Source: Escherichia phage mistaenkt. From it: a DNA stretch of 64,000 bases. Every line of letters starts with the position of its first letter. Position 1 is the first letter of the stretch. Below are positions 7,312 to 29,506 of this stretch, in pieces. Below the pieces are notes generated by a model that saw only the letters and a list, made by a program, of their open reading frames with translations, did not search any database and was not told the origin of the DNA. The position numbers and the translations under genes are program-made. Where the stretch lies: sequence record MN850587.1. One strand, 5' to 3'.

Positions 7312-8094
7312 TTAGTTCTTTGCAGCTAAGAACTTGATATTGGAAATGTCTACAATTGCTTCAGCATCTTTCTCATTTGCTGCAAGAATGTACACATCAG
7401 GTTCACTTCCAAATGTCACTGCACGTTGCATACTGCCTTTCAACGGTGGGGTAACTTGAGTGTTACTTAGAGACATTCTCTCAACCGGAGGGTTACTCCG
7501 ATGTACCTTGTTCTTACGATGCCTGAAGAGGGTAACTCCGTCTTCGTTGACAACGGCTACCCCTGCAAAGTATTGTGGTTCACTGTGATTACCCCATGTT
7601 GACAGAGTATTAAACATTGCCTCTTCAAATACGTAAAGGTAAACATCAACATCTGTCAAGATGTGATTCATGATTACCACAACAGCTTTCGGGTCAAGTC
7701 CACCAATACCTGCACCAATCATTGGGAGACCAACTTTCTTCAGTTGATTCACTTTGCAGTACTGGTTAAGGCTCAACAAAGCACTCTCAAGAGCATCGTA
7801 ACGGGCATCTTTACCAGTCTTCAACTGAGTATATAGGTTAGCAATACGGCCTTGTTTAAGACGTGCTACAGAGAGTTTACCAAGCAGTTTCTGGCAAGGT
7901 TTATGCCCTCTTCCTCCTGCTACACGGTAGACTTCAGCATCGGTTTCATAGGCTTTTGGGTAGCCTTTAGAAATCTTATCAGCAATACCTGCACCCATCA
8001 GGTTCATGCAGTTACAACCGTGACCGATGATATCAAACTTACCTTTTTCAAAGTCTGCGAAGATATCACCTTTGATGACTTTTACAATACCCAT
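7312..8094 (-). CDS. Macro-domain protein with uncharacterised C-terminal extension (260 aa)
   Basis: N-terminal GDIFADFEKGKFDIIGHGCNCMNLMGAGIA and later GLPMIGAGIGGLDP resemble macro-domain GDIT...NAAN...GGGV and FPAISTGIYG motifs; C-terminal about 100 aa unrecognised. Confidence 0.6.
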   Translation of the reverse strand: MGIVKVIKGDIFADFEKGKFDIIGHGCNCMNLMGAGIADKISKGYPKAYETDAEVYRVAGGRGHKPCQKLLGKLSVARLKQGRIANLYTQLKTGKDARYDALESALLSLNQYCKVNQLKKVGLPMIGAGIGGLDPKAVVVIMNHILTDVDVYLYVFEEAMFNTLSTWGNHSEPQYFAGVAVVNEDGVTLFRHRKNKVHRSNPPVERMSLSNTQVTPPLKGSMQRAVTFGSEPDVYILAANEKDAEAIVDISNIKFLAAKN

Positions 8095-8095
8095 C

Positions 8096-8314
8096 TTACC
8101 ATTTCTCCCATGATTCTTTATCTTTAGAAGGCTTCACACGCTGTCCTTCATGGTCTACCCAGATTCCACCACAACCTTCACAGAGTGTTGGCATAGCGTA
8201 ACCAGCTTTGAACTCTTCTTCAGAGATAAGACCTTTTAAGTCTCCTGTGTCACGTCCAAACAGTTTGATGGAACAGTCTTTGCAGAAATCAGCCATTTTC
8301 TTTACCTTTTTCAA
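8096..8314 (-). CDS. Small zinc-ribbon-like protein (72 aa)
   Basis: CKDC ... CEGC cysteine pairs. Confidence 0.55.
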   Translation of the reverse strand: MKKVKKMADFCKDCSIKLFGRDTGDLKGLISEEEFKAGYAMPTLCEGCGGIWVDHEGQRVKPSKDKESWEKW

Positions 8315-8615
8315 AGAGAACTTTCTCTGTCAACTCGTACAAGTCTACATGCTCTATGCCAGCAATGTCAATACCAAGTTTAGTATAACGCTCTTTGATA
8401 TCTTTCTCATTCATCCAGATAAGACACCAATGATTCCTGACAGACTCTTCGAGTTTATCTACACAATCATGAAATGTTGGTGTGTCACCTCTTGTACCAA
8501 CCATTGCCACAACACCATAAAGGAACTCACCGTTACCATGTGTGACTTGTGCTACACCAATATCTTTTTCACTATCTTGAATAACAGCTACAAAGGTTTT
8601 ACCATTCAATTCCAT
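8289..8615 (-). CDS. Hypothetical protein (108 aa)
   Basis: ORF in operon context. Confidence 0.55.
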   Translation of the reverse strand: MELNGKTFVAVIQDSEKDIGVAQVTHGNGEFLYGVVAMVGTRGDTPTFHDCVDKLEESVRNHWCLIWMNEKDIKERYTKLGIDIAGIEHVDLYELTEKVLFEKGKENG

Positions 8616-10079: not shown

Positions 10080-10775
10080 TTAGTGTTTGATAAGCATTGT
10101 TTTAATGTCTGGAAGGATTCGTTTAACCTTCTCAACATTCCTTACTGTATCTTCTATAAAGCATACTACATCATAGTACGGAAGAATGCAAGACTGAATC
10201 ATACGAACTTTCAAACTTTCTGCACTGATTCTGTTTGAACCAAAACCACGCATAAAAAGCATGTAGTCAGTCACAATATGCTTGTCAATAAATAAATGAG
10301 TTGGTACACGTTGAGACTCGCCACGAGCAGTTAAAACACCGATTGCAGCACTCTGATGAATGCCTGAAATGATGTTGAAGATATACGTAGGTTGAGCATC
10401 AACTGAGTCAATCAAGTTTGTATATTGTGACAGAGTACCATCTTCTAGATACGTTGAATTTGTCGGCTTATCAAACTTAGTGAGGACACCATCAATATCT
10501 GTTAAAACCATTGGCTTTTTCATATCAAGGTCTTTTGCAACCAAGATTAAACTATCACGTTTCACTGACACTGTTTTACCTGATTGAAGGTCTGTGCATA
10601 ACACTCTTTCAGCCGTGGAATGGAAGTTCTTAAAATCACACTCAACAGCCCTTGCAGTATCTGCAAAGTCTTCTTTCATAAGGTCTGTCCAACTTGCTGC
10701 ACTTAAATCAATATCCAAAGGATTGATATCGTAAGCGTGACAAAATACCTTGTCCAATTGTTTTAATTCGCTCAT
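10080..10775 (-). CDS. Putative HAD-superfamily phosphatase or nucleotidase (start uncertain)
   Basis: Internal MVLTDIDGVL resembles HAD motif I (DxDG); track start 10817 overlaps the upstream gene; ATG at 10775 has an AAGG SD; later Mets at 10679 and 10520 are possible. Confidence 0.45.
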   Translation of the reverse strand: MSELKQLDKVFCHAYDINPLDIDLSAASWTDLMKEDFADTARAVECDFKNFHSTAERVLCTDLQSGKTVSVKRDSLILVAKDLDMKKPMVLTDIDGVLTKFDKPTNSTYLEDGTLSQYTNLIDSVDAQPTYIFNIISGIHQSAAIGVLTARGESQRVPTHLFIDKHIVTDYMLFMRGFGSNRISAESLKVRMIQSCILPYYDVVCFIEDTVRNVEKVKRILPDIKTMLIKH

Positions 10776-11301
10776 GTTTAACCTTTTTAATGTTTGTTGC
10801 AAACTCACATTGAGCAAGCACCTTCATGTTATTGTACACATCTTGAGAGTATTGTCTAGCTTTTGGGATGCGATATGAGTAACCTGCATTGTATGAAGCT
10901 AAGACACGCTGTAAAGAATATTTCCCATTAGGATTACCATGAACCTTAGTCCAGAACTGAAGCTCTTTGTGTGTTTCCTTTGCAGCATAATCGAAGTCTC
11001 TGATAAGTTTCTTCTTAGCTACGTTTGGGTTAACTTTGTTACGCTTTACAACAGTCTTCAAGTGATTCTGGAACAATCCATAATCGTGAGTCTTTTTATT
11101 TTCAAGACGAAGACCTAACTCTGACTCTTGTAAGGCTATAGCGGCTAAGGTTAAACCCCAACCTTTACCCATCTCTTTCTCACCGTAGTGATAAGCTTTA
11201 AGCATGTTTGTTTTCTGACTGATGGATAATTCTGGACAGTCTGAAGCAACTGCCAAATGTGCTGTTAAGAATAAGCACAAACCTAAAATGAACTTCTTCA
11301 T
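10708..11301 (-). CDS. Lytic transglycosylase (SLT domain) with N-terminal signal peptide; candidate secreted endolysin
   Basis: Signal-like MKKFILGLCLFLTAHLAVAS; catalytic-region motifs ALQESELG and DYGLFQ typical of family 1 lytic transglycosylases. Confidence 0.7.
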   Translation of the reverse strand: MKKFILGLCLFLTAHLAVASDCPELSISQKTNMLKAYHYGEKEMGKGWGLTLAAIALQESELGLRLENKKTHDYGLFQNHLKTVVKRNKVNPNVAKKKLIRDFDYAAKETHKELQFWTKVHGNPNGKYSLQRVLASYNAGYSYRIPKARQYSQDVYNNMKVLAQCEFATNIKKVKHERIKTIGQGILSRLRYQSFGY

Positions 11302-15586: not shown

Positions 15587-17413
15587 TTAAAGCTGTCTGT
15601 CAATAACATTTCGTACATCACGAAGGTTAACGTAGCCATATGGCTGAGAGTCGCAGAATACCAGCTTCAGAGCACACTGAGGGTTGTCAAGTACGCCTTC
15701 AAACTCTGCAAAGCCAAAGCCATCTACAGCTTCCAGCTTATCACCATCCCACATAGGGACTACACCACCAAAAGCAGACTTCTTCAGACCACTGTCAGTT
15801 TTAGGGTCTTTTGCCAGCATGATTTCTTCACCATCCATCTGTGCAAGAGTTGCTTTAACAGCGAATGCAAAGGTATCACGAGTCAGGTACTGGTAAGTGT
15901 ATGAACCAACACCAAAGACAACGTTAGAACTTGCAAAGCCCTTTTCAGCAAGACGGCTAAGAATCTCTTCAGCACGTTCCAGAGTGATAGAGTCACCATA
16001 GATTAAGCCAATATGTTCATCAAGGACTTTGTAACCTTTAGAGTTTACAGTGCCTCCAAAGATGTTGTACAGAGTTTTGATAGCCCCATCAATTTCTGCT
16101 GTCAGCATACGTTTAACAACAACTTTACCAGTCTTGTAAGTCTCTTTAAGGTTAACTGTATCGGCAACGTTAAAGTCTTCTGCATCAACAATTAACTCAT
16201 AACCTTCAGAGATTAGCCAAGCAGAGAAGCCATAACCCATATCTGTCATGTTACAATTCAAGATTGCATCAAGTAGATAAGTATTGTCAGGGGAAATAGT
16301 TGACATGTGTTTGTAATACATGCTCTTAGCATTTTCCCATTCAATTGCACGATAACCAGTAACAATGTGTACAGGGTCACCTGAATCTGGACGGATTACC
16401 AGTTTACCATCACGGTTCATGATTTCTTCACGGAGTTCTGGAAGAATCTCTGTAACTGTACGCCAGAAGTTGTAAGTATCGGACACAACACTTGCAATAC
16501 CAGTTGGGTAAACATCTACCAGCAGGTGCTTAAAGGTTTGAACCTCACCACGCCAGCGTTTAGCATCCAGCAAGCTATCAGACTGCATAATGTACTGTGA
16601 GTGAATGTCATCTTCTGTCAAGTCTTTCATATTCCATGAAATGTTTGCACACATCACAGAGTGTTCAGTTGCTGGAACAGAGTTACCAATATCACTTACA
16701 GTCATGAACTGACCATATGCACGTTTAGCAGTATACACAGCAGGGAAGCTGTCAGTGCCTTTAAAGCTGGTCAGGTGACCTACAGCGTTGAAAGCATCAT
16801 CTGTAAAGCCAGACATACCACGCATTGCAAAGTCGTGACACTGCCAAGGAAGATGGAAGTCATTGTCACAGGTCTTGTCAGCCCAAGATTTACAGATACG
16901 TTTGTAATGCAGTGCAATAGTTGCAATGGTACAAGCTTTCCAGATTTCAGCAGAGAAAGCATCTTCCAGATAACCAGCTACCCAATGGAAACCTTCAACG
17001 GTATTTTTGAAGATAATCATTGGAACACGCATAGGAACGATTGTACCTTCTTCAACAGAGTACACTGCAACTGGCAGATAACCTAAGTCGTGAAGTTCTT
17101 CCCAATGATGACGCTTGATAGCATCTGCACCAAGAACACCATTCATGATTTCCAAGATTTCATCAACAGCTTCTTTCTTATCACGTTCGAAGAAAGTTGC
17201 ATTCCAATGGTCTACTAAGTAATCTTTAACGAAACGTTGAATACCGAAAGCAACTACACCGTCAGTCTCCAAAGGAGTATTAAACCACTTATCGCCACGG
17301 GGTGTAAGGTTCAGCATCAGATACTGAGTTGCACTCGGATACTGGTAGGTGTGACCAGCTTTATAAGCATCTGCATTAAGACCTGCTGGAACTGCATAGA
17401 TTGATTTAGACAT
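15587..17413 (-). CDS. nadV: Nicotinamide phosphoribosyltransferase family protein (Nampt/NadV-like, 608 aa)
   Basis: N-terminal DAYKAGHTYQYP and C-terminal GLIYGDSI, VVFGVGSY, TRDTFAFAVK, KDPKTDSGLKKS blocks match the Nampt family as recalled; longer than typical Nampt. Confidence 0.8.
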   Translation of the reverse strand: MSKSIYAVPAGLNADAYKAGHTYQYPSATQYLMLNLTPRGDKWFNTPLETDGVVAFGIQRFVKDYLVDHWNATFFERDKKEAVDEILEIMNGVLGADAIKRHHWEELHDLGYLPVAVYSVEEGTIVPMRVPMIIFKNTVEGFHWVAGYLEDAFSAEIWKACTIATIALHYKRICKSWADKTCDNDFHLPWQCHDFAMRGMSGFTDDAFNAVGHLTSFKGTDSFPAVYTAKRAYGQFMTVSDIGNSVPATEHSVMCANISWNMKDLTEDDIHSQYIMQSDSLLDAKRWRGEVQTFKHLLVDVYPTGIASVVSDTYNFWRTVTEILPELREEIMNRDGKLVIRPDSGDPVHIVTGYRAIEWENAKSMYYKHMSTISPDNTYLLDAILNCNMTDMGYGFSAWLISEGYELIVDAEDFNVADTVNLKETYKTGKVVVKRMLTAEIDGAIKTLYNIFGGTVNSKGYKVLDEHIGLIYGDSITLERAEEILSRLAEKGFASSNVVFGVGSYTYQYLTRDTFAFAVKATLAQMDGEEIMLAKDPKTDSGLKKSAFGGVVPMWDGDKLEAVDGFGFAEFEGVLDNPQCALKLVFCDSQPYGYVNLRDVRNVIDRQL

Positions 17414-17457
17414 GTTTTAATCTCTCTCAAAGTGGGGCTTAAAAGCCCCTGATTAAT

Positions 17458-18339
17458 TTAATAGATGTTTGCTACAGTTACTTGACCGAAATGAGTCAGA
17501 CCACGGTCTTTCGCACTACCTAAAGAGTCTGTAGTGTAGATGTGTGAAATACCATTGTCAAGCAGGTTTTCAACACCTTTTGAGAAAATACCATGTGTTA
17601 CATACAGTTCAACTTTAGATGCTCCAGCTTCACGAAGATACTTGGCTGCTTCAATGAAGGTACGACCACCATCACAGATATCATCAATGATGAGTACAGT
17701 TTTACCAGTAAGGTCTACATCATCAAGCAGACGCATACCTGTAATCTCACCAGTCTTCAGGTCTCGAACCTTAGCCATTGTTACGTAAGGCTTATCAACC
17801 TCTTTAGCCGTCTCTGCAATCTTCTTAGCTGCTCCTGCATCTGGTGCTACCAGAAAATCAATGGTAGGCTCACTGGCATAGTGTGCTGCAACATCTTTTT
17901 GATGGATGTTCTGGAAGCATTTGAACAGGTTGTCTGCAACGTCACTGTGAGCATCCAGAGCACATACTGCATCAAAATCCATTGCATTGACCAGATTAGC
18001 AAACACTTTCAGTGCTGCTGCATCACCTTTAAACATGTGACGGTCATATCGAGCATTTGGCAGGTAAGCAAAGATGACAGTTTTCATAGTTGCTTTCTGA
18101 GGAATCATTTTGTCGATTGCCTCTTTTGCCAGAGCTAAAGCAAACAGAGTGTCTTTGTCGTAACCTTGTACAGTGAAGATGACGTTCTCAATCTGGGAAG
18201 CATTCTCTTCAGCATAGGTTACTAATTCTTCAGAGAAGTTACCACCAATTTCCCCAGACGGGAACTGGATAATGTTGAACTCTTCTTGGTGAGCACCTTT
18301 TTTCTGTGAGTGCAACAGTACGCTAATAATAGTTTTCAT
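17458..18339 (-). CDS. prs: Ribose-phosphate pyrophosphokinase family protein (Prs-like, 293 aa)
   Basis: PRPP-binding loop VLIIDDICDGGRT and THGIFS block, FPSGEI N-terminal block, VAPDAGA. Confidence 0.8.
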   Translation of the reverse strand: MKTIISVLLHSQKKGAHQEEFNIIQFPSGEIGGNFSEELVTYAEENASQIENVIFTVQGYDKDTLFALALAKEAIDKMIPQKATMKTVIFAYLPNARYDRHMFKGDAAALKVFANLVNAMDFDAVCALDAHSDVADNLFKCFQNIHQKDVAAHYASEPTIDFLVAPDAGAAKKIAETAKEVDKPYVTMAKVRDLKTGEITGMRLLDDVDLTGKTVLIIDDICDGGRTFIEAAKYLREAGASKVELYVTHGIFSKGVENLLDNGISHIYTTDSLGSAKDRGLTHFGQVTVANIY

Positions 18340-29005: not shown

Positions 29006-29506
29006 TTATTCTCTCTCGTTAAGTTTCATGATTTTATGGATTCTCTTCTCAGCATCTTCATAAGTCTCTTTGGTAAGAAACTTGATTGCTGCAATGTTTG
29101 CATTGTAGAAGAGTCGAAGCTTGGAGTCAATCCTTTTTGTCATGACGTCAAACTTATGTTGGAGGTTAGCTTCTCCGTAGACCAACCCACCTCGCGTATA
29201 ATAAGTTTGCACAATATAGAAGTCAAACTCTTTTTCACCGAAAGTTTCAATATCTTTCTTAATGTACTCAGAAGAGGTCTGGTAAACCATCCAGTCACTC
29301 TCTTTTGTCACAATCTTACGTCTGGCCTTTCCAGCTACTTTCTTCTTGGTGACATTGTTAAACTGCTTCTTACCAATGTAATACTGTCCAGTCTTTTTGC
29401 AGTACACTAAGTAAACGAAACCAAAATACTTAGCGGGGTCAATCTCCCCGCACAGTGAAATCCAATGCCCATATTCAGGGCAATTGCCAAAACCTTTAAT
29501 CTTCAT
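29006..29506 (-). CDS. GIY-YIG family endonuclease (putative homing endonuclease)
   Basis: FGFVYLVYCKKTGQYYIGKK matches the GIY...YIG motif; 166 aa; inserted between the exonuclease gene and downstream genes. Confidence 0.6.
   Translation of the reverse strand: MKIKGFGNCPEYGHWISLCGEIDPAKYFGFVYLVYCKKTGQYYIGKKQFNNVTKKKVAGKARRKIVTKESDWMVYQTSSEYIKKDIETFGEKEFDFYIVQTYYTRGGLVYGEANLQHKFDVMTKRIDSKLRLFYNANIAAIKFLTKETYEDAEKRIHKIMKLNERE

What the first reader, a model, noticed from the sequence alone, without database searches (positions are those of the whole stretch)
7312..8094. Macro-domain protein fused to an unknown C-terminal domain
The N-terminal 150 aa carries macro-domain hallmarks (GDIF...IIGHGCN...LMGAGIA and GLPMIGAGIGG), implying ADP-ribose binding or hydrolysis. 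The C-terminal 100 aa matches nothing I recognise. It is the last gene before the early promoter region and the same genome carries an NAD-related pair, so this could reverse ADP-ribosylation-based immunity or process ADPR-derived signals.
Basis: partly seen in the sequence, partly recalled or inferred. Interest (0 to 1): 0.7.

Follow-up and report, generated by a model that had tools for sequence, protein, structure and literature searches.

The report
Phage macrodomain hydrolase with extra domain
This gene of a Felix-O1-like E. coli phage encodes an ADP-ribose-cleaving macrodomain enzyme from a phage family recently shown to disarm bacterial ADP-ribose/NAD-based immunity, and it carries an extra C-terminal domain, found only in this phage lineage, whose role is unknown.

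Summary
Window 7312-8094 (minus strand) is a 260-aa ORF. Residues 1-156 are a confident macrodomain (Pfam Macro E=6e-8; Foldseek TARG1 E=2e-10, TM 0.82-0.87). Residues ~170-260 form a confidently predicted beta-rich domain with no match in Pfam, NCBIfam, PDB or BFVD.

The gene is a conserved core gene of Ounavirinae (Suspvirus here). It is annotated in more than 240 genomes as "phosphatase" or "macro domain protein" (PHROG 335).

The macrodomain belongs to one phage family that holds two recently characterised anti-defence proteins:
- T4 Tk.4/AdfM (41% identity, E=2e-24), which is needed against DarTG2.
- Adpp of Vibrio phage Gary (30% identity), which dephosphorylates ADPR-1''-phosphate so that the NAD-rebuilding pathway NARP1 can overcome aRES defence.

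The family has an invariant Gln where TARG1 and DarG have their catalytic Lys, as in SCO6735, a thymidine-ADPr-DNA hydrolase. Phylogeny does not place our protein with either relative. A short loop after the Gln is shared with T4 Tk.4 and differs from all 11 NARP1-adjacent macros compared. The phage also carries NARP1, 7.5 kb upstream.

Best reading: a counter-defence ADPR-1''-linkage hydrolase. DarT2 reversal is slightly favoured (~0.4) over Adpp-like ADPR-1''-P phosphatase acting in trans (~0.33).

The C-terminal domain is the only new element. It occurs only fused to this macro clade, has no invariant polar residue and evolves about twice as fast as the macrodomain. Verdict: a new variant of a known kind, of moderate interest.

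The parts
7312..8094 (-). Complete CDS of 260 aa plus TAA stop: macrodomain followed by a lineage-specific C-terminal domain
   Evidence: ORF list. PHROG_335 'phosphatase' matches the full length, E=1e-98. The gene is 95-98% identical at nucleotide level to genes of Suspvirus phages EP1, PC79-13, CHB7, EcSzw-1/2 and SUSP2.
7627..8094 (-). Macrodomain, residues 1-156. ADP-ribose-binding and catalytic motifs: D10, H25, N28, G34-A35-G36, Q90 and G127-A128-G129-I130-G131-G132-L133-D134
   Evidence: Pfam Macro. Foldseek to TARG1, Poa1p and DarG. Profile search of PDB: TARG1 6e-18, BT1257 2e-17, Mtb DarG 2.5e-16, SCO6735 6e-15, Poa1p 1.5e-14. 41% identity to T4 Tk.4/AdfM and 30% to Gary Adpp. Invariant columns.
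7588..7626 (-). Linker, residues 157-169, including helix 158-165. It is well predicted only when the macrodomain is present
   Evidence: Full-length model: helix 158-165 with block pLDDT 77-90. In the C-terminal-only model the same residues fall below pLDDT 50.
7315..7587 (-). C-terminal domain, residues ~170-260: six beta strands plus one C-terminal helix, no known family or fold, probably non-catalytic
7241..7282 (-). Terminator-like hairpin followed by a T-run, 30 nt after the stop codon
   Evidence: Pattern scan: 17-pair stem, then TTTCATTTTA.
15587..18339 (-). Possible functional partner on the same strand, 7.5 kb upstream in the direction of transcription: Namat-like (15587-17413) and Adps-like (17458-18339) genes, the NARP1 NAD+ reconstitution pair
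   Evidence: Pfam NAPRTase/NAMPT_N and Pribosyltran/Pribosyl_synth. PHROG 448 and 619. NARP1 of the Felixounavirus Bas63 is cited. The order Adps/Namat, rIIA, rIIB, PNK, macro is kept in Erwinia phage Prophecy, and a Namat-like gene, rIIA, rIIB, PNK, macro in a metagenomic relative.

Best explanation
The gene encodes a phage counter-defence enzyme. Its N-terminal macrodomain belongs to the phage Tk.4/Adpp family, which is Poa1p/TARG1-like and has Gln instead of the catalytic Lys. The domain binds ADP-ribose and hydrolyses the substituent on the ribose C1'' position, releasing free ADP-ribose. I favour thymidine-linked ADP-ribose placed on single-stranded phage DNA by DarT2-type toxins as the physiological substrate in this phage. 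On that reading the protein acts as an orphan DarG-like 'antitoxin', as proposed for its closest characterised relative, T4 Tk.4/AdfM. The same chemistry could also dephosphorylate ADPR-1''-phosphate (see first rival). The C-terminal ~90-residue beta-rich domain is a non-catalytic accessory module restricted to the Felix-O1-like lineage. It most likely mediates binding or targeting, to a protein or nucleic-acid partner that is not identified. Shown here: the fold, the motifs, family membership, the distribution and the absence of any match for the C-terminal domain. Inferred: enzymatic activity, substrate, anti-defence role and the role of the C-terminal domain.
For: Macro fold and motifs. The best pairwise match to a characterised protein is T4 Tk.4, at 41% identity over 135 aa, E=2e-24. 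A tk.4 knockout sensitises T4 to DarTG2 and the gene was named adfM. NCBIfam and PADLOC DarG models are the only defence-related hits (43.8 bits, E=1.9e-11; E=1.7e-12). The residue aligned with TARG1 K84 and DarG K80 is an invariant Gln (Q90). SCO6735 has Gln85 at that position, loses activity when it is mutated (Q85A), cleaves thymidine-ADPr on ssDNA and protects against DarT. The loop after the Gln is 8 residues long in all 11 fusion-clade proteins, in T4 Tk.4 and in TARG1. It is 12-15 residues long, with a QxxY/W motif, in all 11 NARP1-adjacent macros compared, including Adpp. The two-domain layout (macro plus second domain) parallels that of DarG2, whose second domain binds DarT2. The gene is a conserved core gene at a fixed position in 242 Ounavirinae-type genomes and under purifying selection.
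Against: No biochemistry exists for this protein or for T4 Tk.4; the T4 evidence is genetic and comes from a preprint. Placement of the fusion clade next to T4 Tk.4 has only 12% bootstrap support, and NARP1-adjacent Pseudomonas-phage macros are equally distant (distances 1.23-1.26). The protein scores far below the DarG equivalog cutoff (43.8 against 250 bits) and lacks the catalytic Lys, whereas the biochemically proven phiKZ AdfM is a true DarG-like macro (FPTK motif, 137.8 bits). The C-terminal domain shows no similarity to the C-terminal half of the DarG model. Its charge varies widely among homologues (pI 4.6-9.5), which gives no support for generic DNA binding. The phage carries NARP1, which makes the Adpp role attractive.
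Confidence: 0.4

Rival explanations
1. Adpp-like ADPR-1''-phosphate phosphatase acting in trans with the phage's own NARP1, a 'split' NARP1-AP. aRES-type RES enzymes phosphorolyse NAD+ to nicotinamide plus ADPR-1''-P, which NARP1 cannot use. The macrodomain removes the phosphate and yields ADPR, from which Adps and Namat (window 15587-18339) rebuild NAD+.
For: The macrodomain is in the same family as Adpp of Vibrio phage Gary (30% identity, E=6e-17). Adpp converts ADPR-1P to ADPR in vitro and is required for the NARP1-AP operon to overcome aRES. His24 of Adpp, whose H24A mutant was one of the inactivating constructs, aligns with H25 here, which is near-invariant in the family. In the source study, 15% of 859 NARP1 operons had such a macro within two genes; that study did not look further away. 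This phage lineage always carries NARP1 together with the macro, on the same strand and in conserved order. aRES occurs in E. coli, Klebsiella and Enterobacter. Poa1p, an ADPR-1''-P phosphatase, is among the best structural matches (6lfr E=2.4e-9, highest query TM 0.51).
Against: The gene is about 12 genes and 7.5 kb from NARP1, not inside the operon. It lacks the long QxxY/W loop and the GLxGGDW motif shared by all 11 NARP1-adjacent macros compared. Identity to Adpp (30%) is lower than to T4 Tk.4 (41%), and T4 has no NARP1. A small-molecule phosphatase has no obvious need for an extra domain, and all listed Adpp-type proteins are single-domain proteins of 150-170 aa.
Confidence: 0.33
2. Housekeeping Appr-1''-p phosphatase of an RNA-repair pathway. 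This is the historical 'phosphatase' annotation. The enzyme would clear the ADP-ribose-1''-phosphate by-product of 2'-phosphotransferase-dependent tRNA repair, working with the nearby polynucleotide kinase.
For: Similarity to Poa1p. A PNK-like gene lies 2 kb upstream (window 10080-10817; PHROG 3970 E=8e-118), and this PNK-then-macro order is conserved in relatives.
Against: No Tpt1/KptA 2'-phosphotransferase or RNA ligase is annotated in the related genomes examined. The PNK match to Pfam is below cutoff (18 against 27.6 bits). The conserved order can be explained by vertical inheritance alone. The T4 homologue has a defence-specific phenotype.
Confidence: 0.06
3. Hydrolase or binder for another ADP-ribose conjugate: ADP-ribosylated protein or RNA (for example from CmdTAC-type or other ART defences), O-acetyl-ADPR as for YmdB, or a non-catalytic sponge for ADPR-derived signals.
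For: TARG1-class macrodomains act on several substrates, and SCO6735 also de-modifies proteins. Some GenBank records call the gene 'O-acetyl-ADP-ribose deacetylase'. A 2022 survey of viral NAD+/ADPr systems argued that phage macros mainly target soluble ADPR derivatives.
Against: No MacroD/YmdB structure appears among the sequence hits. Every residue expected for catalysis in this class is invariant (N28, Q90, the G-rich loops), which argues against a mere binder. [quoted passage not shown]
Confidence: 0.12

Closest known systems
T4 Tk.4 = AdfM (anti-DarT factor, macrodomain), HIDEN-SEQ preprint 10.1101/2025.11.20.689424
   Same: Same macro family: 41% identity, E=2e-24. Shared motifs IVKxIKGDI, HGCNC, NLYTQ and IGAGIG. 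Gln at the catalytic-Lys position. The same 8-residue loop after the Gln. Both are early-region genes of virulent E. coli myophages annotated 'phosphatase'.
   Different: T4 Tk.4 is a single 155-aa domain, whereas this protein has an extra ~100-aa C-terminal extension. In loop 2 this protein has GGLD where T4 has GKGNW. T4 has no NARP1. The anti-DarTG2 phenotype is known only for T4.
Adpp (ADPR-1''-phosphate phosphatase of NARP1-AP), Vibrio phage Gary KNV71_gp137, preprint 10.64898/2026.01.28.702374
   Same: Same family: 30% identity, E=6e-17. Conserved His (H24 in Adpp, H25 here), Asn, Gln and Gly-rich loops. Both occur in phages that carry NARP1.
   Different: Adpp lies inside the NARP1 operon, is single-domain, and has a 12-15-residue QY(H/N)(W/Y) loop and a GLAGGDW motif. 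This gene is 7.5 kb from NARP1, has the short loop and carries the C-terminal domain.
SCO6735 / BT1257 (Gln-type ALC1/TARG1-like macrodomains; PDB 5e3b, 2fg1)
   Same: Gln replaces the catalytic Lys of TARG1 and DarG. Strong profile matches (2e-17 and 6e-15). SCO6735 hydrolyses thymidine-ADPr-DNA and neutralises DarT without being encoded next to it.
   Different: These are bacterial single-domain proteins. SCO6735 has a longer, Lys-rich mobile loop.
DarG2 antitoxin and phiKZ gp104 AdfM (DarG-like macrodomains)
   Same: Macro fold; the DarG models are the only defence-library hits. The architecture of a macrodomain plus a second domain resembles that of DarG2. A GGLD motif in loop 2 is shared with DarG and phiKZ gp104.
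   Different: The catalytic Lys is absent (Q90). The score is 43.8 bits, against 137.8 for phiKZ gp104 and the 250-bit cutoff. There is no adjacent darT gene. The C-terminal domain has no detectable similarity to the C-terminal (DarT-binding) half of DarG.
TARG1/OARD1 and yeast Poa1p
   Same: Best structural matches: TARG1 E=2e-10, TM 0.82-0.87; Poa1p E=2.4e-9. The His, the adenine-binding Asp and the loop length match those of TARG1.
   Different: The Lys84/Asp125 dyad of TARG1 is not conserved (Gln90). Both are eukaryotic proteins with different biology.

Membership tests
Macro domain superfamily (Pfam PF01661) | HMM score above the gathering threshold | tested here: met
   33.1 bits against a cutoff of 22, residues 25-142 matching 2-118 of the 118-position model.
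Macro domain superfamily (Pfam PF01661) | Three-layer alpha/beta/alpha macro fold | tested here: met
   AF2 pLDDT 89. 243 Foldseek PDB matches at E<=0.001; the 50 best listed are macrodomain structures or designed hydrolases (OSH55 series). Target TM up to 0.87.
Macro domain superfamily (Pfam PF01661) | ADP-ribose-binding motifs: the adenine-contacting Asp, the Asn at the distal ribose and the two Gly-rich phosphate loops | tested here: met
   D10, N28, G34-A-G36 and G127-A-G-I-G-G132 are invariant or near-invariant in 21 full-length and 20 macro-only homologues.
ALC1/TARG1-like class (TARG1, DarG, SCO6735) | Closest solved relatives belong to this class | tested here: met
   Profile against PDB: TARG1 6e-18, BT1257 2e-17, Mtb DarG 2.5e-16, SCO6735 6e-15.
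ALC1/TARG1-like class (TARG1, DarG, SCO6735) | Catalytic Lys (TARG1 K84, DarG K80) | tested here: not met
   The aligned residue is the invariant Gln90 in three independent alignments. This is the SCO6735 (Gln85) variant of the class.
DarG antitoxin (NCBIfam NF048014) | Equivalog score over the full length, including the DarT-binding C-terminal domain | tested here: not met
   43.8 bits against a cutoff of 250. Only model positions 3-149 of 338 match. The C-terminal domain alone gives no DarG hit.
DarG antitoxin (NCBIfam NF048014) | Encoded next to a darT toxin gene | tested here: not met
   The neighbours are small phage ORFs of unknown function and a PNK-like gene. No DarT is annotated in the related genomes examined.
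AdfM, T4 Tk.4 type | Sequence homology to T4 Tk.4 with shared family invariants | tested here: met
   41% identity, E=2e-24. Shared HGCNC, NLYTQ and IGAGIG motifs and the 8-residue post-Gln loop.
AdfM, T4 Tk.4 type | Protects the phage from DarTG2 and removes ADP-ribose from DarT2-modified DNA | not testable with these tools
   This needs plaque assays and an in-vitro de-ADP-ribosylation assay. It is known only for T4 (genetics) and for the unrelated-clade phiKZ AdfM (biochemistry).
AdfM, T4 Tk.4 type | Single-domain protein of ~155 aa | tested here: not met
   The protein is 260 aa with an additional folded domain.
Adpp / NARP1-AP | Macro gene within the NARP1 operon (within two genes of Adps or Namat) | tested here: not met
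   The macro is at 7312-8094 and NARP1 at 15587-18339, about 12 genes apart on the same strand.
Adpp / NARP1-AP | Homology to Adpp with the essential His conserved | tested here: met
   30% identity, E=6e-17. H25 aligns with Adpp H24.
Adpp / NARP1-AP | Sequence signature common to NARP1-adjacent macros: 12-15-residue QxxY/W loop and GL(A/G)GGDW | tested here: not met
   The loop here is QLKTGKDARY (8 residues) and loop 2 is GIGGLD. All 11 NARP1-adjacent macros compared have the long loop.
Adpp / NARP1-AP | ADPR-1''-P phosphatase activity and rescue of NARP1 on aRES hosts | not testable with these tools
   This needs an LC-MS enzyme assay and plaque assays.
MacroD/YmdB O-acetyl-ADPR deacetylases | Closest relatives are of the MacroD/YmdB type | tested here: not met
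   No MacroD or YmdB chain appears among PDB sequence hits up to E=10 or among profile hits.

The most novel reading that the evidence does not exclude
The C-terminal domain is a new, fast-evolving toxin- or effector-binding module. On this reading the protein is a convergent two-pronged 'orphan DarG': it would reverse the modification enzymatically and also block a host defence enzyme (DarT2 or an aRES-type NADase) stoichiometrically, or tether the hydrolase to the phage replisome or ssDNA. The module's fold has no counterpart in PDB or BFVD. A related possibility is that the enzyme is truly bifunctional, cleaving thymidine-ADPr-DNA and dephosphorylating ADPR-1''-P. One protein would then link DarTG counter-defence to NAD+ reconstitution.
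Probability: 0.2. Interest if true: 0.7.

Novelty: new variant of a known kind. Interest (0 to 1): 0.45.

Why it matters
Felix-O1-like phages are widely used for Salmonella and E. coli typing, biocontrol and therapy. The finding would matter in three ways.

- If the protein neutralises DarTG2 and/or aRES, it explains part of their host range and identifies a determinant to keep or engineer.
- It shows that the search used to define NARP1-AP (macro within two genes of NARP1) would have missed a whole phage subfamily in which NARP1 and a family macro are both present but far apart.
- The C-terminal domain is a folded module of unknown function attached to a known anti-defence enzyme, and it can be tested directly by truncation.

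Tried and rejected
- **Exhaustive profile search of 1.84 billion proteins.** It returned 9 hits. Two large proteins (2851 and 1239 aa) proved to be repeat or compositional artefacts that also hit many unrelated Pfam families. A 114-aa and a 54-aa hit are fragments of full-length fusions, not standalone domains.
- **C-terminal domain as a fused neighbour gene.** Comparison with T4 Tk.3 found no similarity.
- **C-terminal domain as an aRES inhibitor.** Comparison with the aRad1 family found no similarity, and there is no aRad1 homologue in the window.
- **P0027 (339 aa) as a possible DarG for comparison.** Only its macro part matches DarG, and it shows no similarity to the C-terminal domain.
- **Domain charge as a clue to DNA binding.** This is uninformative. 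The proven or proposed DNA-acting AdfMs are acidic, and C-terminal-domain pI ranges from 4.6 to 9.5.
- **Nearest PDB neighbour as a way to separate Adpp-like from AdfM-like.** This is uninformative. Gary Adpp hits TARG1 and SCO6735 best, while T4 Tk.4 hits BT1257 and Poa1p best.
- **Phylogeny.** It does not resolve the affiliation of the fusion clade; support is 12% or less.
- **ICP1 AdfB.** It is not a macrodomain protein and is therefore irrelevant.
- **Rfam.** Nothing was found in 6700-8400.
- **Literature.** I found no DarTG or aRES data for any Ounavirinae phage.

Full report
**1. The observation**

The window carries an ATG-to-TAA ORF of 260 aa at 7312..8094 on the minus strand. Its ATG lies one base after the stop codon of the upstream 72-aa ORF and is preceded by GGGAG, so the gene is probably translationally coupled within a leftward operon.

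Pfam Macro matches residues 25-142 above the gathering score (33.1 bits against 22, E=5.9e-8). An AlphaFold2 model built on 21 homologues is confident (pLDDT 89, pTM 0.87). Its N-terminal half superposes on TARG1, Poa1p and DarG macrodomains (Foldseek E=2e-10 to 1e-8, target TM 0.77-0.87).

**2. Where the window comes from**

The gene is 95-98% identical at nucleotide level to genes of Suspvirus phages EP1, PC79-13, CHB7, EcSzw-1/2 and SUSP2. These are ~87-kb members of the Ounavirinae, the Felix-O1-like phages. The gene is annotated there as 'phosphatase', 'putative phosphatase', 'macro domain protein', 'O-acetyl-ADP-ribose deacetylase' or 'hypothetical protein'. PHROG_335 ('phosphatase') covers its whole length (E=1e-98). 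The gene itself is therefore not new.

**3. Context**

A terminator-like hairpin (7282..7241) follows the stop codon. It is followed by a ~500-bp non-coding gap and then a run of small ORFs. Region 1-7320 holds 42 sigma70-like sites against 25.7 +/- 4.6 in shuffles, 32 of them on the gene strand and many in the gaps before the small ORFs.

Upstream on the same strand lie:
- a PNK-like gene (10080-10817);
- rIIB and rIIA;
- a NAMPT-like gene (15587-17413) next to a Prs-like gene (17458-18339).

That pair is the NARP1 type (Namat plus Adps). NARP1 of Bas63 was one of the systems studied experimentally, and Bas63 is the Felixounavirus 'JohannRWettstein'. The order Adps/Namat, rIIA, rIIB, PNK, macro is kept in Erwinia phage Prophecy. 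In metagenomic relatives whose macro protein is only 34-43% identical, the parts of this order that their contigs cover are also kept.

**4. Which macrodomain**

Sequence and profile searches of PDB place the domain in the ALC1/TARG1-like class: TARG1 6e-18, BT1257 2e-17, Mtb DarG 2.5e-16, SCO6735 6e-15, Poa1p 1.5e-14. The DarG models of NCBIfam and PADLOC are the only hits in those libraries, but they fall far below the equivalog cutoff and cover the macro half only (43.8 against 250 bits).

In every alignment the catalytic Lys of TARG1 (K84) and DarG (K80) is replaced by Gln90. This Gln is invariant in all 40 homologues aligned. That is the situation described for SCO6735. Its Gln85 sits at the Lys position and Q85A is inactive. 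The enzyme still cleaves thymidine-linked ADP-ribose from ssDNA and protects against DarT. The Lys-to-Gln change therefore rules out membership of DarG proper but not the activity.

**5. Two characterised phage relatives in the same family**

(a) T4 Tk.4 (155 aa, 'phosphatase, A1pp motif') is 41% identical over 135 aa (E=2e-24). A 2025 preprint found tk.4 to be the single T4 gene conditionally required on DarTG2. A clean knockout became DarTG2-sensitive, and the gene was named adfM.

(b) Adpp of Vibrio phage Gary (158 aa) is 30% identical to our protein (E=6e-17) and 35% identical to T4 Tk.4. A 2026 preprint showed the following:
- aRES defence phosphorolyses NAD+ to nicotinamide plus ADPR-1''-phosphate, which NARP1 cannot use.
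- Purified Adpp converts ADPR-1P to ADPR.
- Adps-Adpp-Namat operons overcome aRES.
- Inactivating any of the three genes (the Adpp construct was H24A), or deleting Adpp, abolishes the effect.
- 15% of 859 NARP1 operons carry such a macro within two genes.

The other protein named AdfM, phiKZ gp104, is biochemically proven to strip DarT2 marks. It is a true DarG-like macro (FPTK motif; 137.8 bits to the DarG model, against 43.8 for ours and 30.3 for T4 Tk.4) and lies outside this family.

**6. Can the two functions be told apart for this protein?**

- **Phylogeny.** A neighbour-joining tree of 35 macrodomains makes the fusion proteins a clade (80% bootstrap), but its position relative to T4 Tk.4 and to the NARP1-adjacent macros is unresolved (12% or less). 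Corrected distances to T4 Tk.4 (1.26) and to the Pseudomonas-phage NARP1 macros (1.23-1.24) are equal; Gary Adpp is further (1.58).
- **Nearest PDB hits.** These do not discriminate.
- **One discrete character does discriminate.** The loop after the Gln has 8 residues in all 11 fusion-clade proteins sampled, in T4 Tk.4 and in TARG1. It has 12-15 residues, with a Q-x-x-(Y/W) motif, in all 11 NARP1-adjacent macros, which also share GL(A/G)GGDW in loop 2 where ours has GIGGLD.

On this basis, together with the higher identity to T4 Tk.4, I rank DarT2 reversal first (about 0.4). An Adpp-like role in trans with the phage's own NARP1 is a close second (about 0.33).

Both reactions cleave the C1'' substituent of ADP-ribose, so one enzyme could do both. 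Nothing here excludes that.

**7. The C-terminal domain**

- **Structure.** Residues ~170-260 fold, in the full-length model and in an independent model of residues 157-260, into the same pattern of six strands and a C-terminal helix (pLDDT mostly 86-93).
- **Distribution.** A profile search of 1.84 billion representative proteins found it only in 246-269-aa macro fusions, in fragments of them, and in two repeat artefacts. By tblastn it occurs in 242 phage records, essentially all Felix-O1-like genomes, always under the macro gene. The macrodomain family itself occurs in 2791 phage records.
- **Conservation.** Its only invariant or near-invariant residues are P173, G178 and Y235, with no conserved polar residue, which argues against a second active site.
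- **Evolutionary rate.** It diverges about twice as fast as the macrodomain (mean pairwise identity 28% against 55%; lower in 208 of 210 pairs). In Erwinia phage Prophecy the corresponding 100 residues are no longer detectable with the profile. Within Suspvirus it is nevertheless under purifying selection (pN/pS 0.05-0.28).
- **Comparisons that found nothing.** It shows no similarity to the C-terminal half of the DarG model, to T4 Tk.3 or to the aRES inhibitor aRad1.

I infer a non-catalytic binding or targeting module. Its partner is unknown.

**8. Comparison with what is known, and novelty**

The macrodomain is a member of a known, very widespread phage family whose two functions were published in 2025-2026. 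The gene has been annotated for years. Three things are not described in anything I could find:
- the two-domain architecture restricted to the Felix-O1-like lineage;
- the apparently novel fold of the C-terminal domain;
- the coexistence of NARP1 with a distal, short-loop family macro, which the published search within two genes of NARP1 could not have seen.

I rate it a new variant of a known kind, of moderate interest (0.45). The most novel reading still open is that the C-terminal domain binds a host defence protein or the replisome, or that the enzyme is bifunctional. I give this about 0.2.

**9. Limits**

- No enzymology or phage genetics exists for any Ounavirinae homologue.
- The T4 and Adpp data come from preprints.
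- Model coordinates and PAE could not be inspected, so the geometry between the C-terminal domain and the active site is unknown.

Noticed in passing
window 6950-7265 (intergenic, downstream of the macro gene): Four to five direct copies of a ~20-27-nt motif, CCTGCACAAWTTNWAAATGA on the + strand, occur at 6952, 7062, 7107, 7146 and 7219. Four match within 3 mismatches against 0.17 expected in the whole window. A second repeat, TTCTCTACAGATTT, occurs at 6981 and 7190. The core TGCACAAWTTNWAAATGA recurs exactly, twice, just downstream of the macro gene in SUSP2, in EcSzw_1 and even in Erwinia phage Prophecy, whose macro protein is only ~43% identical. This suggests a conserved regulatory element, such as a promoter, operator or iteron. 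There is no Rfam match.
   Followed up: partly
window 7020-7060 (minus strand): An unusual C-rich tract, gccctgcccatctccccctcttactccccctctcccc, lies between the repeats and the next gene's promoter-like site (TTGACC-17-TAGTAT at 6888-6860).
   Followed up: no
window 6916-7233 (+ strand): A 105-aa ORF on the opposite strand spans the repeat region. The equivalent ORF is annotated as a CDS in EcSzw_1 (EcSzw1_16, 6900-7208 +), and tiny ORFs are called over the repeats in Prophecy. These are probably annotation artefacts over a regulatory region.
   Followed up: no
window 15587-18339 (minus strand): A NAMPT-like gene (608 aa) lies next to a Prs-like gene (293 aa). This is the NARP1 (Namat plus Adps) NAD+ reconstitution pair, annotated in relatives as nicotinate/nicotinamide phosphoribosyltransferase and ribose-phosphate pyrophosphokinase. 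No macro gene lies inside the operon.
   Followed up: partly
window 29006-29506 (minus strand): A 166-aa ORF is labelled 'NAD synthetase' by PHROG 447 and in GenBank relatives. It matches Pfam SegE_GIY-YIG (E=5e-27) and a homing-endonuclease PHROG, so the 'NAD synthetase' name looks like a propagated misannotation.
   Followed up: partly
window 8096-8314 (minus strand): A 72-aa ORF lies immediately upstream of the macro gene and appears translationally coupled to it. It carries two CxxC pairs (FCKDCS ... LCEGCG), which suggests a zinc ribbon. It belongs to PHROG 2210, of unknown function.
   Followed up: no
window 10080-10817 (minus strand): A PNK-like gene (PHROG 3970, E=8e-118) has only a sub-threshold Pfam HAD_PNKP match (18 against 27.6 bits) and a TTG start. 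It overlaps the upstream SLT-like ORF (10708-11301) by ~110 nt, so the true start may be further downstream.
   Followed up: no
window 1-7000 (minus strand): Recurrent sigma70-like promoters of the form TTTACA-17/18-TA(A/C)(G/C)AT, often with an upstream TG, sit in the ~85-bp gaps before successive small ORFs, for example at 6425, 6080, 5478, 4411, 3589 and 2647. This looks like an array of individually promoted early genes.
   Followed up: partly
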